Assembly (NCBI GenBank): GCA_036387135.1
Contig: DASVUH010000007.1
Location: 2,105-66,104 of the forward strand
Direction: 5' to 3'
From: Pyrinomonadaceae bacterium
Lineage (GTDB): Bacteria > Acidobacteriota > Blastocatellia > Pyrinomonadales > Pyrinomonadaceae
DNA length: 64,000 bases
Shown here: positions 16,638-38,252 of the stretch, piece after piece
Layout: each line of letters begins with the position of its first letter
Position numbering within the stretch: position 1 is the stretch's first letter
The notes under the pieces: generated by a model
What the model was told of the DNA's origin: nothing
Databases searched by the model: none
The model's input: only the letters and a program-made list of their open reading frames with translations
Program-made: the position numbers and the translations under genes

Positions 16638-17234
16638 CTAGGATTTTGATTCGGCGAGCGCGTCGCGTACCCGTTTCATATCTTCCCAAACCTCGCGTTT
16701 TTTCGTCGGATCGCGGAGCAAATAAGCCGGATTAAAAGTCGGCATTATTCGAGCAAAACCGCCGTAATCGTGAAACTCGCCGCGCATCTGCGAAATCGTT
16801 TTTTTCGTCTTCAAAAGAGCTTTGGTCGGAGTCGCGCCGAACGAGATAATTATTTTCGGGCGAACAACGGCGAGTTCTCGATGCAGATACGGAATAAAAA
16901 AGTTTAAGATGTCAGGCGTCAACTCGTCTCCGGCGGAAATATATTTGACGGTATTTGTCAGATAACAATCTTCGCGTTTGAGTCCAATCGAATTCAAAAT
17001 TTTAACCAGCATTTCGCCCGCCGGTCCCATAAACGGACGCCCGCTCGCCGCATCCGGCGCGCCCGGCGATTCGCCGACAACCGCCACGCGCAAACCCGCC
17101 GCGCCTTCGCCGAAAATAAACATTCGACTCTGCAATGCCGGAATCGCTTTAGCCTTTTCGAGCAATTCCTGATTCACTTCGTCAAGCGTTTCGGTCGGCT
17201 GCGTTTCTTCATCTGCAAACAAAAAATTTTGCAT
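16638..17234 (-). CDS. Uracil-DNA glycosylase family 4-like paralog lacking the Fe-S cysteine ligands and with Asn replacing the motif-B His
   Basis: Aligns to the neighbouring canonical UDG4 gene: GESPGAPDAASGRPFMGPAGEML versus GEAPGANEDAEGRPFVGRAGQLL, and FNPAYLLRDP versus FHPAYLLRDP. None of the four Cys residues is conserved. Confidence 0.7.
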   Translation of the reverse strand: MQNFLFADEETQPTETLDEVNQELLEKAKAIPALQSRMFIFGEGAAGLRVAVVGESPGAPDAASGRPFMGPAGEMLVKILNSIGLKREDCYLTNTVKYISAGDELTPDILNFFIPYLHRELAVVRPKIIISFGATPTKALLKTKKTISQMRGEFHDYGGFARIMPTFNPAYLLRDPTKKREVWEDMKRVRDALAESKS

Positions 17235-17344: not shown

Positions 17345-18370
17345 TCACTTTTGCGTCCGAGCAAGTTCGTCGCGCACTTTTTTCATATCTTCCCACGTTT
17401 CCCGCTTTTTCGACGGGTCGCGCAAAAGATAAGCCGGGTGAAAAGTCGGCATCACTTTAATGCCGTAATAATCCTGAAATTTACCGCGAATTTTGGTGAT
17501 TCCTTCTTTCGTGTCAAGCAGATTCTGCGTCGCCGTGTTGCCCATTACAACGATGATTTCGGGGCGCGCGATGGAGATTTCGCGCATTAAAAATTGGCGG
17601 CAGGTTCTGGCTTCCTGAATCGTCGGCGTGCGGTTTTGCGGTGGGCGGCACCGGTTGACGTTGCCGATTAAAACTTCCTCGCGTTTTAAACCGATGGCTT
17701 CGATGATTTTGGTCAAAAGCTGTCCGGCGCGCCCGACAAAGGGGCGTCCCTCGGCGTCTTCGTTCGCGCCCGGCGCTTCGCCGACAAAAAGAATGCGCCC
17801 TGTCCAATTGCCTTCCGTGTGGACGATTTTCGTTCTGCCCTGATAAAGCGGGCAGCGCACGCAATCGCCGATGTCGGCGCGGATTTCCTCGACAGTTTCG
17901 TTCGATTCCGGGAGCGTTGCGGATTCCGGCGTCAGATCGCCAAAAAGTGAACCTTCCATTTTTGTTTCCTCTGATTTTTTTGCAAAATTCTGCGGCGGCG
18001 CGACGTTTATTGGCTCTGCAATTTTTTTTAGAATTTCCGGCGCACTTGATTCTTCCTCGCGCGCTGCAACCGACGGCGAGATTTTCGACAATTTTGTCGC
18101 TTCCAATTTATCGCGGAAAGAATTTAAACGAGGCAGCGGCTTTGTTTGGGGCGCAGCAACAGGTTTCGGCGGCGCGGTTTTGTTCACGGGCGGCACATAA
18201 GCCTGAAAAGCGGGCGGCGCGGCTCTTAAAGTCTGAGGCTGTGTTTCTTCCGTTTTTTCCGCGACAAAATCGGTTTCCAATCCTGCAACGCCCAATTCTT
18301 GCGCAAACGCTAAATGCTCGCGCACGTCCGCAAGCAATTCCAAAAAATCTTCGCGCAAACTTTCAGCCAT
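17345..18370 (-). CDS. Uracil-DNA glycosylase family 4 (4Fe-4S type) with a ~170-aa Pro/Ala-rich low-complexity N-terminal extension
   Basis: C-terminal domain carries CVRCPLY, GEAPGANEDAEGRPFVGRAGQLL, NRCRPP..ARTCRQ (four Cys) and FHPAYLLR. Confidence 0.85.
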   Translation of the reverse strand: MAESLREDFLELLADVREHLAFAQELGVAGLETDFVAEKTEETQPQTLRAAPPAFQAYVPPVNKTAPPKPVAAPQTKPLPRLNSFRDKLEATKLSKISPSVAAREEESSAPEILKKIAEPINVAPPQNFAKKSEETKMEGSLFGDLTPESATLPESNETVEEIRADIGDCVRCPLYQGRTKIVHTEGNWTGRILFVGEAPGANEDAEGRPFVGRAGQLLTKIIEAIGLKREEVLIGNVNRCRPPQNRTPTIQEARTCRQFLMREISIARPEIIVVMGNTATQNLLDTKEGITKIRGKFQDYYGIKVMPTFHPAYLLRDPSKKRETWEDMKKVRDELARTQK

Positions 18371-20430: not shown

Positions 20431-21039
20431 ATGATTGCCCAACCCAAACAAAAATATACGCTCGAAGAATACCTGGAGCTTGAGGAAAAATCGGAAGAAA
20501 AATTCGAATATTGGGACGGAAACGTCTGGACGATGAGCGGCGCCAGTCTGGCTCATAACACGATTGTTCTCAATATCGGGAGCGAGCTGCGAACAGGTCT
20601 GCATCCGCTCGGCTGCCGCGCCTTTCCTTCGGATATGCGAATTTTCGTGCCGGATTATCCGCCGCATCGCTACCCTGATGTGACCGCTTTGTGCGGCAGA
20701 CCTGAAATCAAGAAAACGGGCAATCTTGAGCTTTTGACAAATCCGCAATTAATTGTCGAAGTTTTGTCGGACTCGACCGAAGGTTTTGACCGCGGCGATA
20801 AATTTTCTTATTACAAATCAATCGAAAGCTTTACCGAGTATTTGCTCGTAGCGCAACACCGACCGCACGTTTCGCAGTTTATCAAACAAGGCGAAAAATT
20901 TTGGAATCACACCGAATACAACGATTTGGAAGAAGCTGTTGCGCTCCGATTCGCTCCGAGCGAAATTAAGCTCAGCGAGATTTACCGCGAAGTCGAATTT
21001 ACGGAAAGACCGTTTTTTGACGACTCGATTATCAAATGA
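20431..21039 (+). CDS. Uma2 family endonuclease (DUF820, restriction-endonuclease-like fold)
   Basis: Characteristic Uma2 N-terminus YTLEEYLELEEKSEEKFEYWDG..V..M.GAS..HN and acidic core residues. 202 aa. Confidence 0.75.
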   Translation: MIAQPKQKYTLEEYLELEEKSEEKFEYWDGNVWTMSGASLAHNTIVLNIGSELRTGLHPLGCRAFPSDMRIFVPDYPPHRYPDVTALCGRPEIKKTGNLELLTNPQLIVEVLSDSTEGFDRGDKFSYYKSIESFTEYLLVAQHRPHVSQFIKQGEKFWNHTEYNDLEEAVALRFAPSEIKLSEIYREVEFTERPFFDDSIIK

Positions 21040-35397: not shown

Positions 35398-36672
35398 ATG
35401 AACGAAAATATAAAGAAAACAAGATTAGAAAACGGTCTCACAATTTTGACGGAAAAAATGCCGGGCGTGCGTTCGGCGACAATCGGATTTTGGGTAAAAA
35501 GCGGTTCGCGTCATGAACCGGAACATTTAAACGGAATCTGCCATTTCATCGAACACTCGGTTTTTAAAGGAACTGCGAAGCGTTCGGCTCTCGATATTGC
35601 GGTTGAATCCGACAAACTCGGCGGAAATTTCGACGCTTTTACCTCGCACGAAATCACGGGTTTTACGATGAAAATCGTTGACAAATGCGTCCCGCAGGCT
35701 TTTGATCTTTTGGCGGATATGCTGGCGAATCCGCGTTTTGACGAGAAGGAATTAAAACGCGAGCAAAAGGTCATCATCGAAGAAATGAAAATGGTCGAAG
35801 ACACGCCCGAAGAATACCTGGGCGAGCTTTTCAACCGCGCATTTTTCCCCGCTCATCCATTAGGCTTGCCGATTGAAGGCACGCGCGAAACCGTTAAAAC
35901 CTTCGGTCACCGAACAACCGCCGAATTTCACGCCGCAGTTTTCGCGCCGTCAAACATCGTTATTGCAGCAGCCGGAAATCTCGAACACTCGCAACTGGTC
36001 GGATTAGCCGAAAAATCTTTCGGAAAAACAACGAACGACGAACAACGAACGACGAACAACGAACAACCGCAATTGGCAGCGCCAATCTTGCTCAAGAAAA
36101 AGCGCGAATTGGAACAAACGCATCTTATTATCGCCACGCCTTTTGTGCCGTCAAACAGCCCGCAGCGTTATGCGGCGAATCTTTTGACAAATATTTTGGG
36201 CGGCGGAACGGCGTCTCGTTTGTGGCAATCCGTCCGCGAACAACGCGGTCTGGCATATTCGGTCGGGGCAAGCGCGATTGCGTTTCAGGATTGCGGCATT
36301 TTTTCGGTTTATGCCGGGACTTCGCCAAAACATCTCGATCAGGTTGTTGATTTGTCAATCGCCGAAATGCGCCGCATCGTGCGCAAGGGGGTTTCAGCGG
36401 AAGAACTCGAACTTGTTAAAGAACAAGGCGTGGCTTCAATCCTGCTCGGTTTAGAGTCAACCAGCGTGCGAGCGGGAACTCTGGCGCGTCAGGAAATCGT
36501 TCACGGCAAAACGATTCCGATTGAGGAAACTCTGGCAAACATCGAAGCCGTCACGCCCGACGACATTCAAGCCGTTGCGCGAGAGTTTTTCCAAACCGAA
36601 CAAATCGCTCTCGCCGCGCTTGGCAATCTCAACGGGTTTAAGATAGAACGTTCACGGTTGAGCGTTTCTTAA
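35398..36672 (+). CDS. M16 family (insulinase/pitrilysin-like) zinc peptidase. Contains an in-frame heptamer-repeat insertion.
   Basis: Inverted zinc motif HFIEHSVFKGT (HxxEH) and a downstream EE. 424 aa. Confidence 0.85.
   Translation: MNENIKKTRLENGLTILTEKMPGVRSATIGFWVKSGSRHEPEHLNGICHFIEHSVFKGTAKRSALDIAVESDKLGGNFDAFTSHEITGFTMKIVDKCVPQAFDLLADMLANPRFDEKELKREQKVIIEEMKMVEDTPEEYLGELFNRAFFPAHPLGLPIEGTRETVKTFGHRTTAEFHAAVFAPSNIVIAAAGNLEHSQLVGLAEKSFGKTTNDEQRTTNNEQPQLAAPILLKKKRELEQTHLIIATPFVPSNSPQRYAANLLTNILGGGTASRLWQSVREQRGLAYSVGASAIAFQDCGIFSVYAGTSPKHLDQVVDLSIAEMRRIVRKGVSAEELELVKEQGVASILLGLESTSVRAGTLARQEIVHGKTIPIEETLANIEAVTPDDIQAVAREFFQTEQIALAALGNLNGFKIERSRLSVS
36028..36067. repeat. (CRACGAA)n heptanucleotide tandem repeat, ~5.5 copies, in-frame in the M16 peptidase gene (encodes TTNDEQRTTNNEQ)
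   Basis: Read directly. Same repeat unit as in the crtB-like gene at 23475..23507. Confidence 0.9.
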
Positions 36673-36675
36673 TTT

Positions 36676-36722
36676 ATGAAATTCACGGTTCTCGGCAGCG
36701 GTTCGACCGGAAATGCGGTTTT
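36676..36722. repeat. 47-bp direct repeat, copy 1: a duplicate of the first 47 nt of the MBL-fold gene. Left boundary of the vapBC insertion.
   Basis: atgaaattcacggttctcggcagcggttcgaccggaaatgcggtttt is identical to 37428-37474. It encodes an 18-aa remnant MKFTVLGSGSTGNAVLRL. Confidence 0.85.
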
Positions 36723-37152
36723 AAGATTGTAATGGATTGATTGTTTTCAAACCCGAAAAGCGGCTAAAATCGCTGTCCGTCGTTATGAGAACGGCATTAT
36801 GTTCGATAGCGAGCGCGGCGAGATGCGCATCCATAATCATTGCGGCTTTAATTTGTCAGACGGTTATCAGATTTTTGAAAATCGTCCAATGGCTTTCAGC
36901 GGGCAGCAGTATTCGCGCATTCGGAACTTCAAGCCAATCGCTCACAATTTCAGTGGCTTGAGTTGGAGTCAAAGGATTAGGAAATGCCCGCGCATTTGTC
37001 GAAATGCGTAGAAATGCCGTAATTGTTTGCCAGCCGAAACCGACCAAATCCGTACCGGAGAGTTGATTTTCGAGCCATTCGCGGCATTTTTCGTGTTCGG
37101 CGGCATCAGAATTATAGGCGTAAAGCAAAATGTTGGCATCGGGCAAATTCAT
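36721..37152 (-). pseudogene. vapC: vapC-like PIN-domain toxin gene with an in-frame TGA (plus coordinates 36856-36858) after codon 98. The C-terminal PIN segment containing the last conserved Asp is encoded beyond the stop.
   Basis: N-terminus MNLPDANILLYA (PIN Asp). The same frame continues after TGA as QIKAAMIMDAHLAALAIEHNAVLITTDSDFSRFSGLKTINPLQS*, the canonical PIN C-terminal motif. Confidence 0.6.
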
Positions 37153-37157
37153 TCGGT

Positions 37158-37388
37158 TTAATTTTGCTCGATTGTTTCAAGCAGTTCATTGATTTTGTCG
37201 TAATTTAAGTCTTCGCGCTTGCCCATCGAATGCGGGCGGATTTTAAAGGGTTTGCCGGTCTGTTTCGCCTGCAGACCGAGCCTCAGAGTTTCGTTAACGA
37301 TTTCTTTGAATGTCGCGCCGTCTCGCTGCCGCATTTCGCCCTCGAGTTTGGCAACTATGTCGTCATCAATTACTATCGTAGTTTCCAT
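37158..37388 (-). CDS. vapB: VapB-like antitoxin (76 aa), immediately upstream of vapC on the minus strand
   Basis: METTIVIDDDIVAKLE.. small N-terminal DNA-binding-like region with an acidic/helical tail. 5-nt gap to the vapC start. Only the C-terminal 76 codons of the long ORF 37158..37766 look genuine. Confidence 0.55.
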   Translation of the reverse strand: METTIVIDDDIVAKLEGEMRQRDGATFKEIVNETLRLGLQAKQTGKPFKIRPHSMGKREDLNYDKINELLETIEQN

Positions 37389-37427
37389 ACTGAAGATGTT
37401 AATTTCGCTCAGGTTTATTGTCAAAAA

Positions 37428-37474
37428 ATGAAATTCACGGTTCTCGGCAGCGGTTCGACCGGAAATGCGGTTTT
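37428..37474. repeat. 47-bp direct repeat, copy 2: the genuine 5-prime end of the MBL-fold gene. Right boundary of the vapBC insertion.
   Basis: Identical to 36676-36722. Confidence 0.85.
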
Positions 37475-38252
37475 GATTTCTGCCGGAAAAACAAAAGTTC
37501 TGATTGACGCCGGTTTGAGCGCGAAAGAAATTGTGCGCCGCTGCGTTGAAGTCGGCGAAGACGTTGCAAAGCTCGACGCGGTTCTCGTCACGCACGAACA
37601 TTCGGATCATGCGGGCGGTTTGCGGGTTTTGCTCAAAAGTCTGAATTGCCCGGTTTATATGTCGGGCGAAACGCTCGAAGCGTATCTTTTTGAAAAGCGT
37701 CACGTTAAGCCTGACGAAGGTGTTAAACGGACCGACGCGATTAAAGGGAAAGTCGTTGAAATTCAATCAAGCCAGGACTTCCGCATCGGTGAAATCGAGT
37801 TTGAGCCTTTCAGCGTGCCGCACGACGCGGCTGACAATTTCGGTTTCGTCGCCAAATATTGCGGAATCAGATTAGCGGCGGTGACGGATTTCGGGCAGAT
37901 GACGACGTTGATTTCACAAAAACTGCGCGGATGCGACGCGATTATTATTGAATCGAATCACAGCTTGCCGATGCTGCGCGCGTGTCCGATTTATTCGTGG
38001 GATTTAAAACAAAGAATCGCGTCGCGCACCGGGCATCTTTCAAACGAAGATTTAGCCGTCTGGCTTTCCGCTGAGTTTGACGGCGCGGCGCGTCACATCG
38101 TTCTCGCGCATCTCTCGCAAAAAGCGAACGAGCCGCATCTGGCGCGTTTAACCGCCGAACAAGCTATCGCGATGCGCTCGCCGCTTTTCAAAGCCGAAAC
38201 AAAAATCACTCTCACGCATCACAAAGAACCGACCGAGTGGATCGAGTTTTAA
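37428..38252 (+). CDS. MBL-fold metallo-hydrolase
   Basis: HEHSDHAGG metal-binding motif. N-terminus MKFTVLGSGSTGNAVLI typical of this fold. Start chosen at ATG 37428 rather than the upstream ORF start. Confidence 0.8.
   Translation: MKFTVLGSGSTGNAVLISAGKTKVLIDAGLSAKEIVRRCVEVGEDVAKLDAVLVTHEHSDHAGGLRVLLKSLNCPVYMSGETLEAYLFEKRHVKPDEGVKRTDAIKGKVVEIQSSQDFRIGEIEFEPFSVPHDAADNFGFVAKYCGIRLAAVTDFGQMTTLISQKLRGCDAIIIESNHSLPMLRACPIYSWDLKQRIASRTGHLSNEDLAVWLSAEFDGAARHIVLAHLSQKANEPHLARLTAEQAIAMRSPLFKAETKITLTHHKEPTEWIEF

What the first reader, a model, noticed from the sequence alone, without database searches (positions are those of the whole stretch)
36676..37474. vapBC toxin-antitoxin cassette inserted at the 5-prime end of an MBL-fold hydrolase gene, flanked by a 47-bp direct duplication
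The first 47 nt of the MBL gene (atgaaattcacggttctcggcagcggttcgaccggaaatgcggtttt) occur twice, at 36676-36722 just after the M16 peptidase stop and at 37428-37474 as the real gene start. Between the copies lie 705 bp encoding, on the opposite strand, a VapB-like antitoxin and a PIN-domain VapC. The toxin stop codon lies exactly at the junction with repeat copy 1. A 47-bp duplication is far longer than a normal transposon target duplication. It suggests either a site-specific integrating module that carries a copy of the target 5-prime end to restore the host gene, or a recombination footprint. There is no integrase nearby, so this looks like a minimal mobile toxin-antitoxin module.
Basis: seen in the sequence. 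Interest (0 to 1): 0.75.

Follow-up and report, generated by a model that had tools for sequence, protein, structure and literature searches.

The report
vapBC cassette with duplicated gene start
A toxin-antitoxin gene pair sits inside the first 47 bases of a soil acidobacterium's hydrolase gene and carries a spare copy of that gene start; related genomes suggest a one-off recombination scar, gained and lost by ordinary homologous recombination, and here the toxin is already dead.

Summary
A perfect 47-nt direct repeat (36676-36722 and 37428-37474) brackets a 705-bp minus-strand vapBC cassette between an M16 peptidase gene and an MBL-fold hydrolase gene in a Pyrinomonadaceae chromosome. Six independent assemblies of close relatives show the same architecture and the same copy1/vapC joint, so it is not an artefact.

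Empty sites exist in one close relative (L098) and in two sister lineages (L122, L123/L124). The cassette is therefore a presence/absence polymorphism. Copy 1 is the resident's old gene start and copy 2 is the replacement that travels with the cassette.

The "autonomous minimal mobile module" reading has no positive support:
- Every close VapC homologue lies at this one site.
- No recombinase, terminal inverted repeats, or plasmid or phage copy was found.
- Copy 1 decays.
- The cassette itself is a recombination mosaic.
- A 69%-identical vapBC occupies the same M16-MBL slot in more distant relatives without any duplication.

The best reading is one illegitimate joint plus a homologous crossover (insertion-duplication, HFIR-like). 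After that the 47-nt repeat served as a homology arm for RecA-type gain and precise loss.

All six relatives have an intact vapC. This is an ordinary TA family with a neat but modestly interesting architecture.

The parts
35398..36672 (+). M16 (insulinase-family) peptidase gene, the conserved left flank of the variable slot. Stop codon at 36670-36672.
   Evidence: PF00675 and PF05193. M16 lying upstream of MBL is conserved in distant Acidobacteriota (L013, L014, L016, L019).
36676..36722 (+). Copy 1: relic of the resident MBL gene start (nt 1-47), now a dead-end 18-codon ORF running antisense into the 3' end of vapC.
   Evidence: 100% identical to copy 2. In seven lineages it always begins exactly at the ATG, and the sequence upstream is unrelated between lineages. 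It is collinear with the single MBL start of the empty site L098. It accumulates substitutions, 10 synonymous and 5 nonsynonymous types. It has no terminator-like fold.
36721..37152 (-). vapC, a PIN-domain toxin of the TIGR00028 subfamily. It is a pseudogene in this window, with an in-frame TGA at codon 99 (36856-36858). The stop codon overlaps copy 1 by 2 nt.
   Evidence: Closest solved structure is Mtb VapC43, 7vwo, E=2e-23. Six relatives have an intact 143-aa ORF with Gly or Arg at codon 99.
37158..37388 (-). vapB-like antitoxin gene, 76 aa and intact, 5 nt upstream of vapC.
   Evidence: The protein is 100% identical in L081, L082, L083 and L086. It has no Pfam, NCBIfam or PDB match, so the assignment rests on position and size.
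37389..37427 (.). 39-nt intergenic region carried by the cassette. On the minus strand it has TTGACA (37424-37419), a 17-nt spacer and TAACAT (to 37396), ending 7 nt before the vapB ATG. This is an inferred near-leaderless vapBC promoter.
   Evidence: Best promoter-like hit in the region, 10 of 12 matches. The region is invariant or nearly so in all filled lineages. L111 and L121 have the same -35/17/-10/ATG layout.
37348..37376 (+). Promoter-like site inside the vapB 5' codons, pointing at MBL (TTGGCA, 17 nt, TACTAT). It is a candidate replacement promoter for MBL once the gene is cut off from the M16 operon.
   Evidence: 9 of 12 matches. It lies in the near-invariant block 37342-37498. Function is inferred and was not tested.
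37428..37474 (+). Copy 2: the functional first 47 nt of the MBL gene, physically linked to the cassette.
   Evidence: It shows 2 or fewer differences among the filled lineages.
37428..38252 (+). MBL-fold hydrolase gene (274 aa, Lactamase_B_2 type), the conserved right flank.
   Evidence: The public annotation over-extends it to 340 aa, starting at 37230.

Best explanation
This is a chromosomal type II VapBC toxin-antitoxin cassette sitting in a hypervariable slot between two conserved genes (M16 peptidase and an MBL-fold hydrolase) of a Pyrinomonadaceae lineage.

The filled allele was probably created once, by an insertion-duplication. Incoming DNA from a relative carried vapC, vapB, the 39-nt promoter region and an MBL 5' end. 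It recombined homologously within MBL. Its other end was joined illegitimately, with microhomology of about 2-3 T at most, to nt 47/48 of the resident MBL. The event could have been Campbell-type integration of a circularised fragment or homology-facilitated illegitimate recombination.

That one event explains every boundary:
- The repeat starts at the ATG because donor-recipient homology starts there.
- It ends at the illegitimate joint, next to the vapC stop.
- Copy 1 is the orphaned resident start.
- Copy 2, with the cassette's own compact divergent promoters, restores an expressible MBL gene.

Afterwards the host's homologous recombination used the 47-nt repeat and the flanking genes as arms. 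Cassette alleles were exchanged between lineages, the variable genes left of copy 1 were swapped, and copy1 x copy2 recombination can delete the cassette precisely and regenerate an empty site. No dedicated recombinase is involved.

In this window the toxin has since been inactivated by a GGA-to-TGA nonsense mutation, while vapB stays intact. That is the usual first step of TA decay.

Shown: the architecture, the polymorphism, the single shared joint, the mosaicism and the pseudogene. Inferred: the polarity and exact mechanism of the founding event, the promoters, and the role of RecA.
For: 1. One joint, one site. Seven lineages share the same copy1/vapC joint, give or take a 1-nt indel in a T run, and copy 1 starts at the ATG in all of them.
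2. Empty sites. L098 is collinear with filled L086 through M16, DUF7710 and the 47-mer, then continues straight into MBL. L122 and L123/L124 are empty with no vapBC remnant.
3. Copy 1 is the resident start. The genes upstream of it end 0-10 nt before its ATG, with an ATGA stop/start overlap in L084. L086 copy 1 shares T9/A12 with the L098 native start, whereas L086 copy 2 has C9/G12. Copy-1 variants are biased toward synonymous changes in the MBL frame (10 versus 5, p=0.0015-0.005), as expected for sequence that evolved as a working gene start.
4. Recombination, not clonal descent. For the window versus L081, L082 and L083, dS is 0.04-0.08 for vapBC, 0.19-0.22 for MBL and 0.27-0.43 for M16 (Fisher p from 0.005 to 2e-10). 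Against L084 and L085 the vapC dS is about 0.7. L086 has vapC 12% diverged but vapB only 0.8% diverged.
5. No mobility machinery or other sites. No recombinase is present from 19.7 to 55 kb. No terminal inverted repeats. No plasmid or phage copy. No close homologue lies elsewhere. Homologues in other contexts have no flanking repeats.
6. The first 47 nt of MBL are conserved in their own right, at 46/47 in L122 and 43/47 in L123. That makes them a natural homology anchor.
7. HFIR is a documented route: a homologous crossover at one end of incoming DNA and an illegitimate join at the other (PMC3240628). It has been proposed for module displacement that leaves orphan immunity genes, and in one array an effector 3' end, in V. 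cholerae T6SS clusters (PMC5361080).
Against: - The donor arrangement this model needs has not been found. That would be a W-type vapBC directly upstream of an MBL start, with something other than the 47-mer after the vapC stop.
- Classical HFIR usually produces insertion plus deletion, not duplication. A circular intermediate or a two-step path is therefore needed.
- 47 nt is close to the lower limit for efficient RecA recombination.
- The identical joint in all lineages, the existence of empty sites, a repeat that begins at the gene boundary, and the low dS of the cassette are all equally expected of a site-specific element.
- The vapBC in the same slot in L111 and L121 could mean the cassette was ancestral and the segment carrying the variable genes and the 47-mer was the incoming piece.
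- The filled sites were found through VapC, so they are a biased sample. Only one unbiased close relative, L098, was sampled, and it is empty.
Confidence: 0.6

Rival explanations
1. Mirror polarity. vapBC was already resident directly downstream of M16, as in L111 and L121. What came in was a segment from an empty-type relative carrying the variable gene(s) plus the first 47 nt of MBL. It was anchored homologously in M16 and joined illegitimately at the vapC stop. The result is the same kind of scar, but the TA is the old part.
For: L111-L113 and L121 carry a 69-70% identical VapC and a 60-73% identical VapB in the same slot. There, the vapC stop is 1 nt from the M16 stop, the promoter layout is the same, and there is no duplication. 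The M16 3' end (GCGTTTCTTAA) resembles MBL nt 39-47 (GCGGTTTT), which offers possible microhomology. M16 is the most diverged and most mosaic flank.
Against: The nearest sampled outgroups, L122 (MBL 91%) and L123/L124 (88%), are empty. Vertical persistence of vapBC would therefore need at least two losses. The VapC of L111 and L121 is only marginally closer to the window's (69-70%) than VapCs in unrelated contexts are (63-67%), so orthology is not established. In L111 and L121 a HAD gene separates vapB from MBL.
Confidence: 0.2
2. A true site-specific integrative cassette. The 47-mer is an att site, with attL as copy 1 and attR as copy 2. The circular form is vapBC plus one 47-mer. A tyrosine or serine recombinase encoded elsewhere in the genome inserts it into the MBL start and excises it.
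For: The insertion point is the same in all carriers. Clean empty sites exist. The repeat runs from the gene boundary to a fixed point, as with islands that restore a targeted gene end. The cassette's dS is lower than that of both flanks in three lineage pairs. The L086 pattern (copy 1 resident-like at nt 9 and 12, copy 2 cassette-like) fits a crossover 3' of nt 12.
Against: No recombinase lies in the cassette or within about 17 kb. There are no inverted-repeat or arm-type features. The cassette is absent from L122 even though its target is conserved at 46/47. It is never seen at another locus, on a plasmid or on a phage. Copy 1 is free to drift by up to 5 of 47 positions. Recombination breakpoints fall inside the cassette, which shows that general recombination acts here.
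Confidence: 0.12
3. Copy 1 is kept because it does something. For example, it could form an antisense tail on the vapBC transcript that pairs with the MBL translation start, or act as a decoy operator half-site, or encode an 18-aa peptide translationally coupled to M16. On this view it is more than a scar.
For: Copy 1 persists in all seven filled lineages with ATG and reading frame retained. Its substitutions are biased toward synonymous changes. No terminator separates vapC from copy 1, so read-through antisense RNA is plausible. The GAAATTCAC half of an inverted repeat at the vapB promoter also occurs in copy 1.
Against: The nonsynonymous changes include Thr-to-Met, Gly-to-Ser, Leu-to-Pro and Thr-to-Ile. 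One copy has an indel at the end. Divergence of copy 1 (6-11%) is similar to that of neighbouring non-constrained sequence. The synonymous bias is explained equally well by exchange with functional resident alleles. Persistence is automatic, because removing copy 1 gives no benefit.
Confidence: 0.05
4. The repeat is an assembly artefact or a chance match.
For: None beyond the general risk with metagenome assemblies.
Against: Seven independent assemblies from NCBI MAG, ENA and Logan sources carry the structure, and they have diverged from one another in sequence. The chance expectation is about 1e-19.
Confidence: 0.01

Closest known systems
VapBC type II toxin-antitoxin systems, TIGR00028 'Mtu_PIN_fam' subfamily (closest solved member: M. 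tuberculosis VapC43, PDB 7vwo)
   Same: A PIN-domain toxin of 143 aa scoring well above the family cutoff. A small upstream antitoxin gene lies 5 nt away in the same operon. An sigma-70-like promoter sits directly upstream of the antitoxin.
   Different: The antitoxin matches no curated VapB family. The toxin is a nonsense pseudogene in this window. The operon appears leaderless, and its promoter region abuts and partly overlaps the start of a host gene.
Homology-facilitated illegitimate recombination and Campbell-type insertion-duplication (PMC3240628; proposed for V. cholerae T6SS effector-immunity module displacement that leaves orphan immunity genes, PMC5361080)
   Same: New genes are added at a conserved anchor without any element-encoded recombinase. 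One end is homologous and the other illegitimate. A remnant of the resident gene is left next to the incoming module, and ordinary homologous recombination reshuffles the locus afterwards.
   Different: Here the remnant is a 5' gene fragment that duplicates the anchor. The described cases mostly involve insertion with deletion or 3' orphans. The event here is inferred from comparative data, and neither the donor nor an intermediate has been observed.
Integrative islands and prophages that target the end of a gene (classically the 3' end of a tRNA gene) and carry a replacement copy of that end (from general knowledge, not tested here)
   Same: Direct repeats of tens of nucleotides flank the insert. 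The repeat runs from the gene boundary to the crossover point. The host gene is restored, and empty sites carry a single copy.
   Different: Those elements encode their own integrase next to the att site and are kilobases long. This 705-bp cassette encodes only the TA pair, and no recombinase was found nearby.
TA cassettes in chromosomal (super)integrons (from general knowledge; the integron parallel is discussed in PMC5361080)
   Same: A compact, promoter-bearing TA pair behaving as a cassette in a variable array next to other small genes of unknown function.
   Different: There is no attC-like imperfect palindrome at the cassette end. There is no IntI integrase and no attI site. The flanking repeat is host coding sequence.

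Membership tests
VapBC type II toxin-antitoxin | Toxin is a PIN-domain protein scoring above curated family thresholds | tested here: met
   TIGR00028 scores 128.3 bits against a cutoff of 73.6. PF01850 scores 50.7 bits against a cutoff of 23.6. The stop codon was masked as X for both searches. Mtb VapC43 (7vwo) matches at E=2e-23.
VapBC type II toxin-antitoxin | Conserved acidic PIN active-site residues are present | tested here: inconclusive
   In the alignment to VapC43, Asp5, Asp108 (DAHLAA motif) and Asp126 align. The fourth acidic residue was not checked explicitly. In the window's allele, the TGA at codon 99 removes Asp108 and Asp126 from any product.
VapBC type II toxin-antitoxin | Small antitoxin gene immediately upstream, co-oriented and tightly spaced | tested here: met
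   A 76-aa ORF at 37158-37388 ends 5 nt before the vapC ATG. The pair is conserved in six relatives and in L111 and L121.
VapBC type II toxin-antitoxin | Antitoxin belongs to a recognised VapB or DNA-binding antitoxin family | tested here: not met
   No Pfam, NCBIfam or PDB sequence match was found. No fold prediction was run.
VapBC type II toxin-antitoxin | Intact toxin ORF, and toxicity neutralised by the antitoxin | tested here: not met
   The ORF is broken by an in-frame TGA in this window and is intact in L081-L086. Toxicity and neutralisation cannot be tested with these tools.
Site-specific integrative element (att-flanked) | Flanking direct repeats, with a single copy at empty sites | tested here: met
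   47-nt repeats. A single copy is present in L098, L122 and L123.
Site-specific integrative element (att-flanked) | Cognate integrase or recombinase encoded in or next to the element | tested here: not met
   The cassette encodes only VapB and VapC. ORFs of 170 aa or more from 19.7 to 55 kb are housekeeping-type, with no recombinase domain. A recombinase acting in trans from elsewhere in the genome cannot be excluded.
Site-specific integrative element (att-flanked) | Element found in independent genomic or taxonomic backgrounds, or at secondary sites | tested here: not met
   All VapC homologues of 83% identity or more lie at the same locus in one clade. The cassette is absent from L122 despite a 46/47 target. 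There is no plasmid or phage hit.
IS or transposon insertion with target-site duplication | Short target-site duplication (typically 2-14 bp), terminal inverted repeats and a transposase | tested here: not met
   The duplication is 47 nt. No inverted repeats sit at the cassette ends. No transposase is present.
Integron gene cassette | attC recombination site at the cassette end, and IntI or attI nearby | tested here: not met
   There is no structured imperfect palindrome next to the vapC stop; the fold z-score is -0.3. No integrase is present.
Insertion-duplication or HFIR recombination scar | A single founding joint shared by all carriers, with no mobility genes | tested here: met
   The copy1/vapC joint is the same in seven lineages, and no mobility genes were found.
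Insertion-duplication or HFIR recombination scar | The repeat equals the segment of donor-recipient homology, and the other boundary is an illegitimate joint with at most a few nt of microhomology | tested here: inconclusive
   The repeat starts at the ATG, and the upstream sequences of copies 1 and 2 are unrelated. At the joint, only the terminal T run could be shared. The donor sequence is unknown, so microhomology cannot be verified.

The most novel reading that the evidence does not exclude
The 47-mer is a true attachment site. On this reading vapBC plus one copy of the MBL start is a roughly 750-bp recombinase-less integrative cassette. It is mobilised in trans by an unidentified recombinase, or efficiently by RecA via a looped-out circle taken up by transformation. 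It inserts specifically into the start of a conserved housekeeping gene and brings the promoter and start codon needed to keep that gene alive. That would make it a self-entrenching 'natural knock-in' TA element.
Probability: 0.12. Interest if true: 0.7.

Novelty: new member of a known kind. Interest (0 to 1): 0.3.

Why it matters
This locus is a clean, well-sampled natural example of how a toxin-antitoxin pair can enter a conserved operon without any mobile-element machinery. The cassette brings a spare gene start and its own promoters, so the interrupted host gene survives. The resulting 47-nt repeat then acts as a built-in homology arm, allowing precise loss and transfer between strains. 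It also shows the expected end of such a cassette, with the toxin inactivated first.

For annotation, it explains three things:
- a spurious 18-codon pseudo-start after the M16 gene;
- an over-extended 340-aa MBL gene call in public data;
- a vapC that should be flagged as a pseudogene.

If the minority reading (a dedicated site-specific TA cassette) were true, it would be a new class of minimal mobile element. The present evidence does not favour that.

Tried and rejected
- Species-representative genomes. The best Pyrinomonadaceae hits have only 60-70% MBL identity and mostly a different upstream neighbour, an SDR gene. They are too distant to serve as empty sites.
- Exact look-up of VapB. 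It found only L081, because gene calls differ on short contigs.
- DNA search of the 705-bp insert against plasmids and phages. No match.
- Rfam scan of 33-41 kb at E of 0.1 or below. No match.
- Terminator or structured element in copy 1 on the vapBC strand. None found; z=-0.3.
- Terminal inverted repeats or attC-like features at the cassette ends. None found.
- Flanking direct repeats around vapBC homologues in other contexts (L111, L114, L115, L121). None flank vapBC.
- Recombinase or transposase search from 19.7 to 55 kb. None found.
- Concerted evolution of the two copies. I considered this because both L081 copies share C27 and C39. I rejected it as a general explanation because copy 1 differs from copy 2 by 1-5 nt in the other lineages, and position 39 is polymorphic everywhere.
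- Treating the near-invariance of copy 2 as proof of a sweep. This is weakened because the empty L122 start is already 46/47 identical.
- Literature search for TA cassettes flanked by duplicated gene starts. Nothing specific turned up.
- Structure prediction and the large representative-protein search were not used. Family assignment was already unambiguous.
Full report
**Observation**

The window carries a perfect 47-nt direct repeat, ATGAAATTCACGGTTCTCGGCAGCGGTTCGACCGGAAATGCGGTTTT, at 36676-36722 and 37428-37474. It is the only perfect local direct repeat of 28 nt or more in the 64 kb. The chance expectation is about 1e-19.

Copy 1 begins 3 nt after the stop of an M16 peptidase gene (35398-36672; PF00675 and PF05193). 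Copy 2 is the start of a 274-aa MBL-fold hydrolase gene (37428-38252).

The 705 bp between the copies encode two genes on the minus strand:
- a 76-aa antitoxin-like ORF (37158-37388);
- 5 nt downstream, a PIN-domain gene (36721-37152) that scores 128 bits on the VapC model TIGR00028 against a cutoff of 73.6. Its closest solved relative is M. tuberculosis VapC43.

The vapC stop codon overlaps the last two bases of copy 1. This removes the C-terminal third of the protein, including two aligned catalytic aspartates.

**Host and neighbourhood**

The MBL protein places the window in the Pyrinomonadaceae (Acidobacteriota). Species-representative genomes reach only 60-70% identity. M16 lying directly upstream of MBL is an old arrangement, seen in distant Blastocatellia and Terriglobia (L013, L014, L016, L019).

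The ORFs of at least 170 aa from 19.7 to 55 kb are ordinary chromosomal genes where annotated. None has an integrase, transposase or other recombinase domain. No known RNA family matches around the locus.

**Close relatives found through VapBC**

An exact look-up of VapB and a homologue search with VapC returned six contigs from different samples and assemblers (L081-L086; VapC 83-97% identical). After those, identity drops to 70% or below.

All six contigs have the same architecture: copy 1, vapC, vapB, a 39-nt intergenic region, copy 2, then MBL. The copy1/vapC joint is the same in each. The structure is therefore real, and it is older than the divergence of these lineages, whose cassettes differ by up to 16% in nucleotide sequence. 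All six have an intact 143-aa vapC with Gly or Arg at codon 99. The nonsense codon is private to the window's lineage, or it is a sequencing error.

Copy 1 begins exactly at the ATG in every lineage, and the sequence upstream of it is unrelated between lineages. That upstream space, between the M16 stop and copy 1, differs in every lineage:
- 3 nt in the window;
- 135 nt of non-coding sequence in L081;
- a 172-aa secreted ORF in L082;
- 93-aa and 151-aa ORFs in L083;
- 183-aa and 79-aa ORFs in L084 (L085 retains the 183-aa homologue's 3′ end);
- a DUF7710 gene in L086.

These genes are co-oriented with M16 and MBL and end 0-10 nt before the copy 1 ATG. In L084 the stop overlaps it as ATGA. That is how an operon gene abuts the next gene's true start, so copy 1 looks like the original MBL start.

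**Empty sites**

One metagenome scan used a codon-degenerate pattern for the MBL start that copy 1 cannot match. It returned 24 loci.

One of them, L098, is a close relative (MBL 98.8% and M16 94% amino-acid identity). It has M16, a DUF7710 gene, a single 47-mer, then MBL, with no vapBC. It is collinear with filled L086 up to the last base of the 47-mer. At that point L086 continues into vapC and L098 continues into MBL.

An MBL homologue search gave two intermediate lineages:
- L122 (MBL 91%) has M16, a 67-aa membrane ORF, then MBL.
- L123 and L124 (88%) have M16, 43 nt, then MBL.

Both are empty, with no vapBC remnant.

L098 is nested among the filled lineages for both MBL and M16, and filled L085 is more divergent than L098 is. 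L098 is thus either a secondary precise loss or evidence that the filled allele spread laterally.

**Which copy came with the cassette**

Copy 2, the intergenic region and the first 15 vapB codons form a block (37342-37498) with two or fewer differences in every filled lineage. Copy 1 differs from the consensus by 0-5 nt.

The copy 1 of L086 shares T9 and A12 with the L098 native start, and these states also occur in the outgroup L111. The copy 2 of L086 has the cassette-type C9 and G12.

Copy-1 variants are biased toward changes that are synonymous in the MBL frame: 10 types against 5, where about 27-31% synonymous is expected (p=0.0015-0.005). They also include clearly damaging changes (Thr to Met, Gly to Ser, Leu to Pro). 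This fits copy 1 sequences that descend from, or were exchanged with, functional resident alleles and are now drifting.

One caution applies. The first 47 nt of MBL are conserved in their own right (46/47 in empty L122, 43/47 in L123). The invariance of copy 2 is therefore not proof of a sweep.

**Recombination signal**

Between the window and L081, L082 or L083, synonymous divergence is 0.04-0.08 for vapB and vapC, 0.19-0.22 for MBL and 0.27-0.43 for M16 (Fisher p from 0.005 to 2e-10). Against L084 and L085, vapC dS is about 0.7 while MBL dS is about 0.22. In L086, vapC is 12% diverged but vapB only 0.8%.

Cassette alleles therefore do not track their flanks, and breakpoints fall inside the cassette. 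This is the signature of general homologous recombination among related strains.

**What the cassette carries**

The best promoter-like site in the region is on the minus strand inside the 39-nt intergenic region: TTGACA, a 17-nt spacer, then TAACAT, ending 7 nt before the vapB ATG. This implies a near-leaderless vapBC transcript. L111 and L121 have the same layout.

A plus-strand site (TTGGCA, 17 nt, TACTAT; 37348-37376) lies within the vapB 5' codons and points at MBL. The cassette therefore plausibly supplies a promoter for the gene it has cut off from the M16 operon.

A 9-nt inverted repeat brackets the vapB promoter and includes MBL codons 1-4. It is a candidate operator. All of these functional assignments are inferences from consensus matches.

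**Tests of mobility**

- The 705-bp insert has no DNA match in 72,556 plasmid or 50,697 phage records.
- No close homologue sits at any other locus.
- More distant subfamily members have unrelated neighbours: a DEAD helicase and an esterase for L114, and Fic and IS630 for L115-L120 (65-66% VapC identity). None has direct repeats flanking vapBC.
- The cassette ends have no inverted repeats or attC-like structure. Copy 1 does not fold as a terminator.

**Same slot in more distant relatives**

The next-closest VapCs (69-70% identity; L111-L113 and L121) lie in the same slot in lineages with MBL 78% and M16 78-83% identical. The order there is M16, then vapC and vapB on the opposite strand, then a HAD hydrolase gene, then MBL. 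The vapC stop is 1 nt from the M16 stop, and no duplicated gene start is present.

Two readings are possible. A vapBC in this slot may predate the duplication, which then requires losses in L122 and L123. Alternatively, the slot may be a hot spot that captured related cassettes twice. Nucleotide distances place L122, L123 and L111/L121 at similar depth from the window's clade, so this question stays open.

**Mechanism**

The simplest account is a single insertion-duplication. DNA carrying vapC, vapB, the promoter region and an MBL 5' end recombined homologously in MBL. Its other end was joined illegitimately at nt 47/48 of the resident gene.

The repeat then equals the stretch of homology to the left of the joint. 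It starts at the ATG because the cassette-side and resident-side upstream sequences are unrelated. Copy 1 is the orphaned start.

This combination of one homologous and one illegitimate end is what defines homology-facilitated illegitimate recombination (PMC3240628). It has been proposed for module displacement that leaves orphan immunity genes, and in one array an effector 3′ end, in V. cholerae T6SS clusters (PMC5361080). A circularised fragment integrating by a single crossover would give the duplication directly.

Once formed, the repeat-insert-repeat structure can loop out by recombination between the 47-mers, giving an L098-type site. It can also be recombined into empty relatives, using 47 nt on one side and MBL on the other. 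That much of the "mobile" idea survives, but it works through host recombination and not through any function of the cassette.

The mirror polarity (vapBC resident, with the variable genes and the 47-mer incoming) is a serious rival. So, less so, is a true site-specific element served by a recombinase in trans. Neither is excluded. I put them at about 0.2 and 0.12, against about 0.6 for the preferred model.

**Verdict**

It is a new member of a known kind. It is of modest interest as a well-documented natural case of a TA cassette that restores the gene it interrupts, and that can be gained and lost precisely through a 47-nt homology.

Noticed in passing
window 37230-38252 (+): The longest ORF over the MBL gene is 340 aa. 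That is how the 100%-identical public protein P0121 is annotated. Its first 66 codons run antisense through vapB, and all orthologues are 274 aa starting at 37428, so this looks like a gene-calling over-extension caused by the cassette.
   Followed up: partly
window 36673-36675 and the equivalent interval in L007, L081-L086, L098, L111, L121, L122 and L123: The interval between M16 and MBL is a hypervariable slot. Almost every lineage has different content there: nothing, a DUF7710 gene, small secreted or membrane ORFs, a HAD hydrolase, or two larger genes in L007. All are co-oriented with the flanking genes. Most have no Pfam family.
   Followed up: partly
L114 3453-3516 and 4931-4994: In another Pyrinomonadaceae genome, a 64-nt direct repeat (86% identical) flanks an esterase gene that lies immediately downstream of a vapBC homologue. 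It may be a second insertion-duplication scar of the same general kind.
   Followed up: no
window 37398-37406 / 37430-37438: The inverted repeat GTTAATTTC / GAAATTCAC brackets the vapB promoter hexamers and includes MBL codons 1-4. It is a candidate VapB operator. The second half-site is also present in copy 1.
   Followed up: no
window 37342-37498: This block covers the vapB 5' codons, the intergenic region and the first 71 nt of MBL. It is nearly invariant in all filled lineages, even where vapC is 16% diverged. Overlapping promoters, intrinsic conservation of the MBL start, or a short-tract recombination sweep could each contribute.
   Followed up: partly
window 16654-16745 and 17361-17452: A 92-nt repeat at 77% identity lies at the 5' ends of two adjacent minus-strand ORFs (16638-17234 and 17345-18370). 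They are apparently tandem paralogues.
   Followed up: no
window 36027-36060: A 14-nt tandem repeat (AACAACGAACGACG) lies inside the linker between the two M16 domains. This linker differs in sequence between lineages.
   Followed up: no
window 20431-21036 (+); L122 7163-7726: A Uma2-family putative restriction endonuclease gene lies in the window. Another lies near the MBL locus in L122. There is no evident link to the cassette.
   Followed up: no
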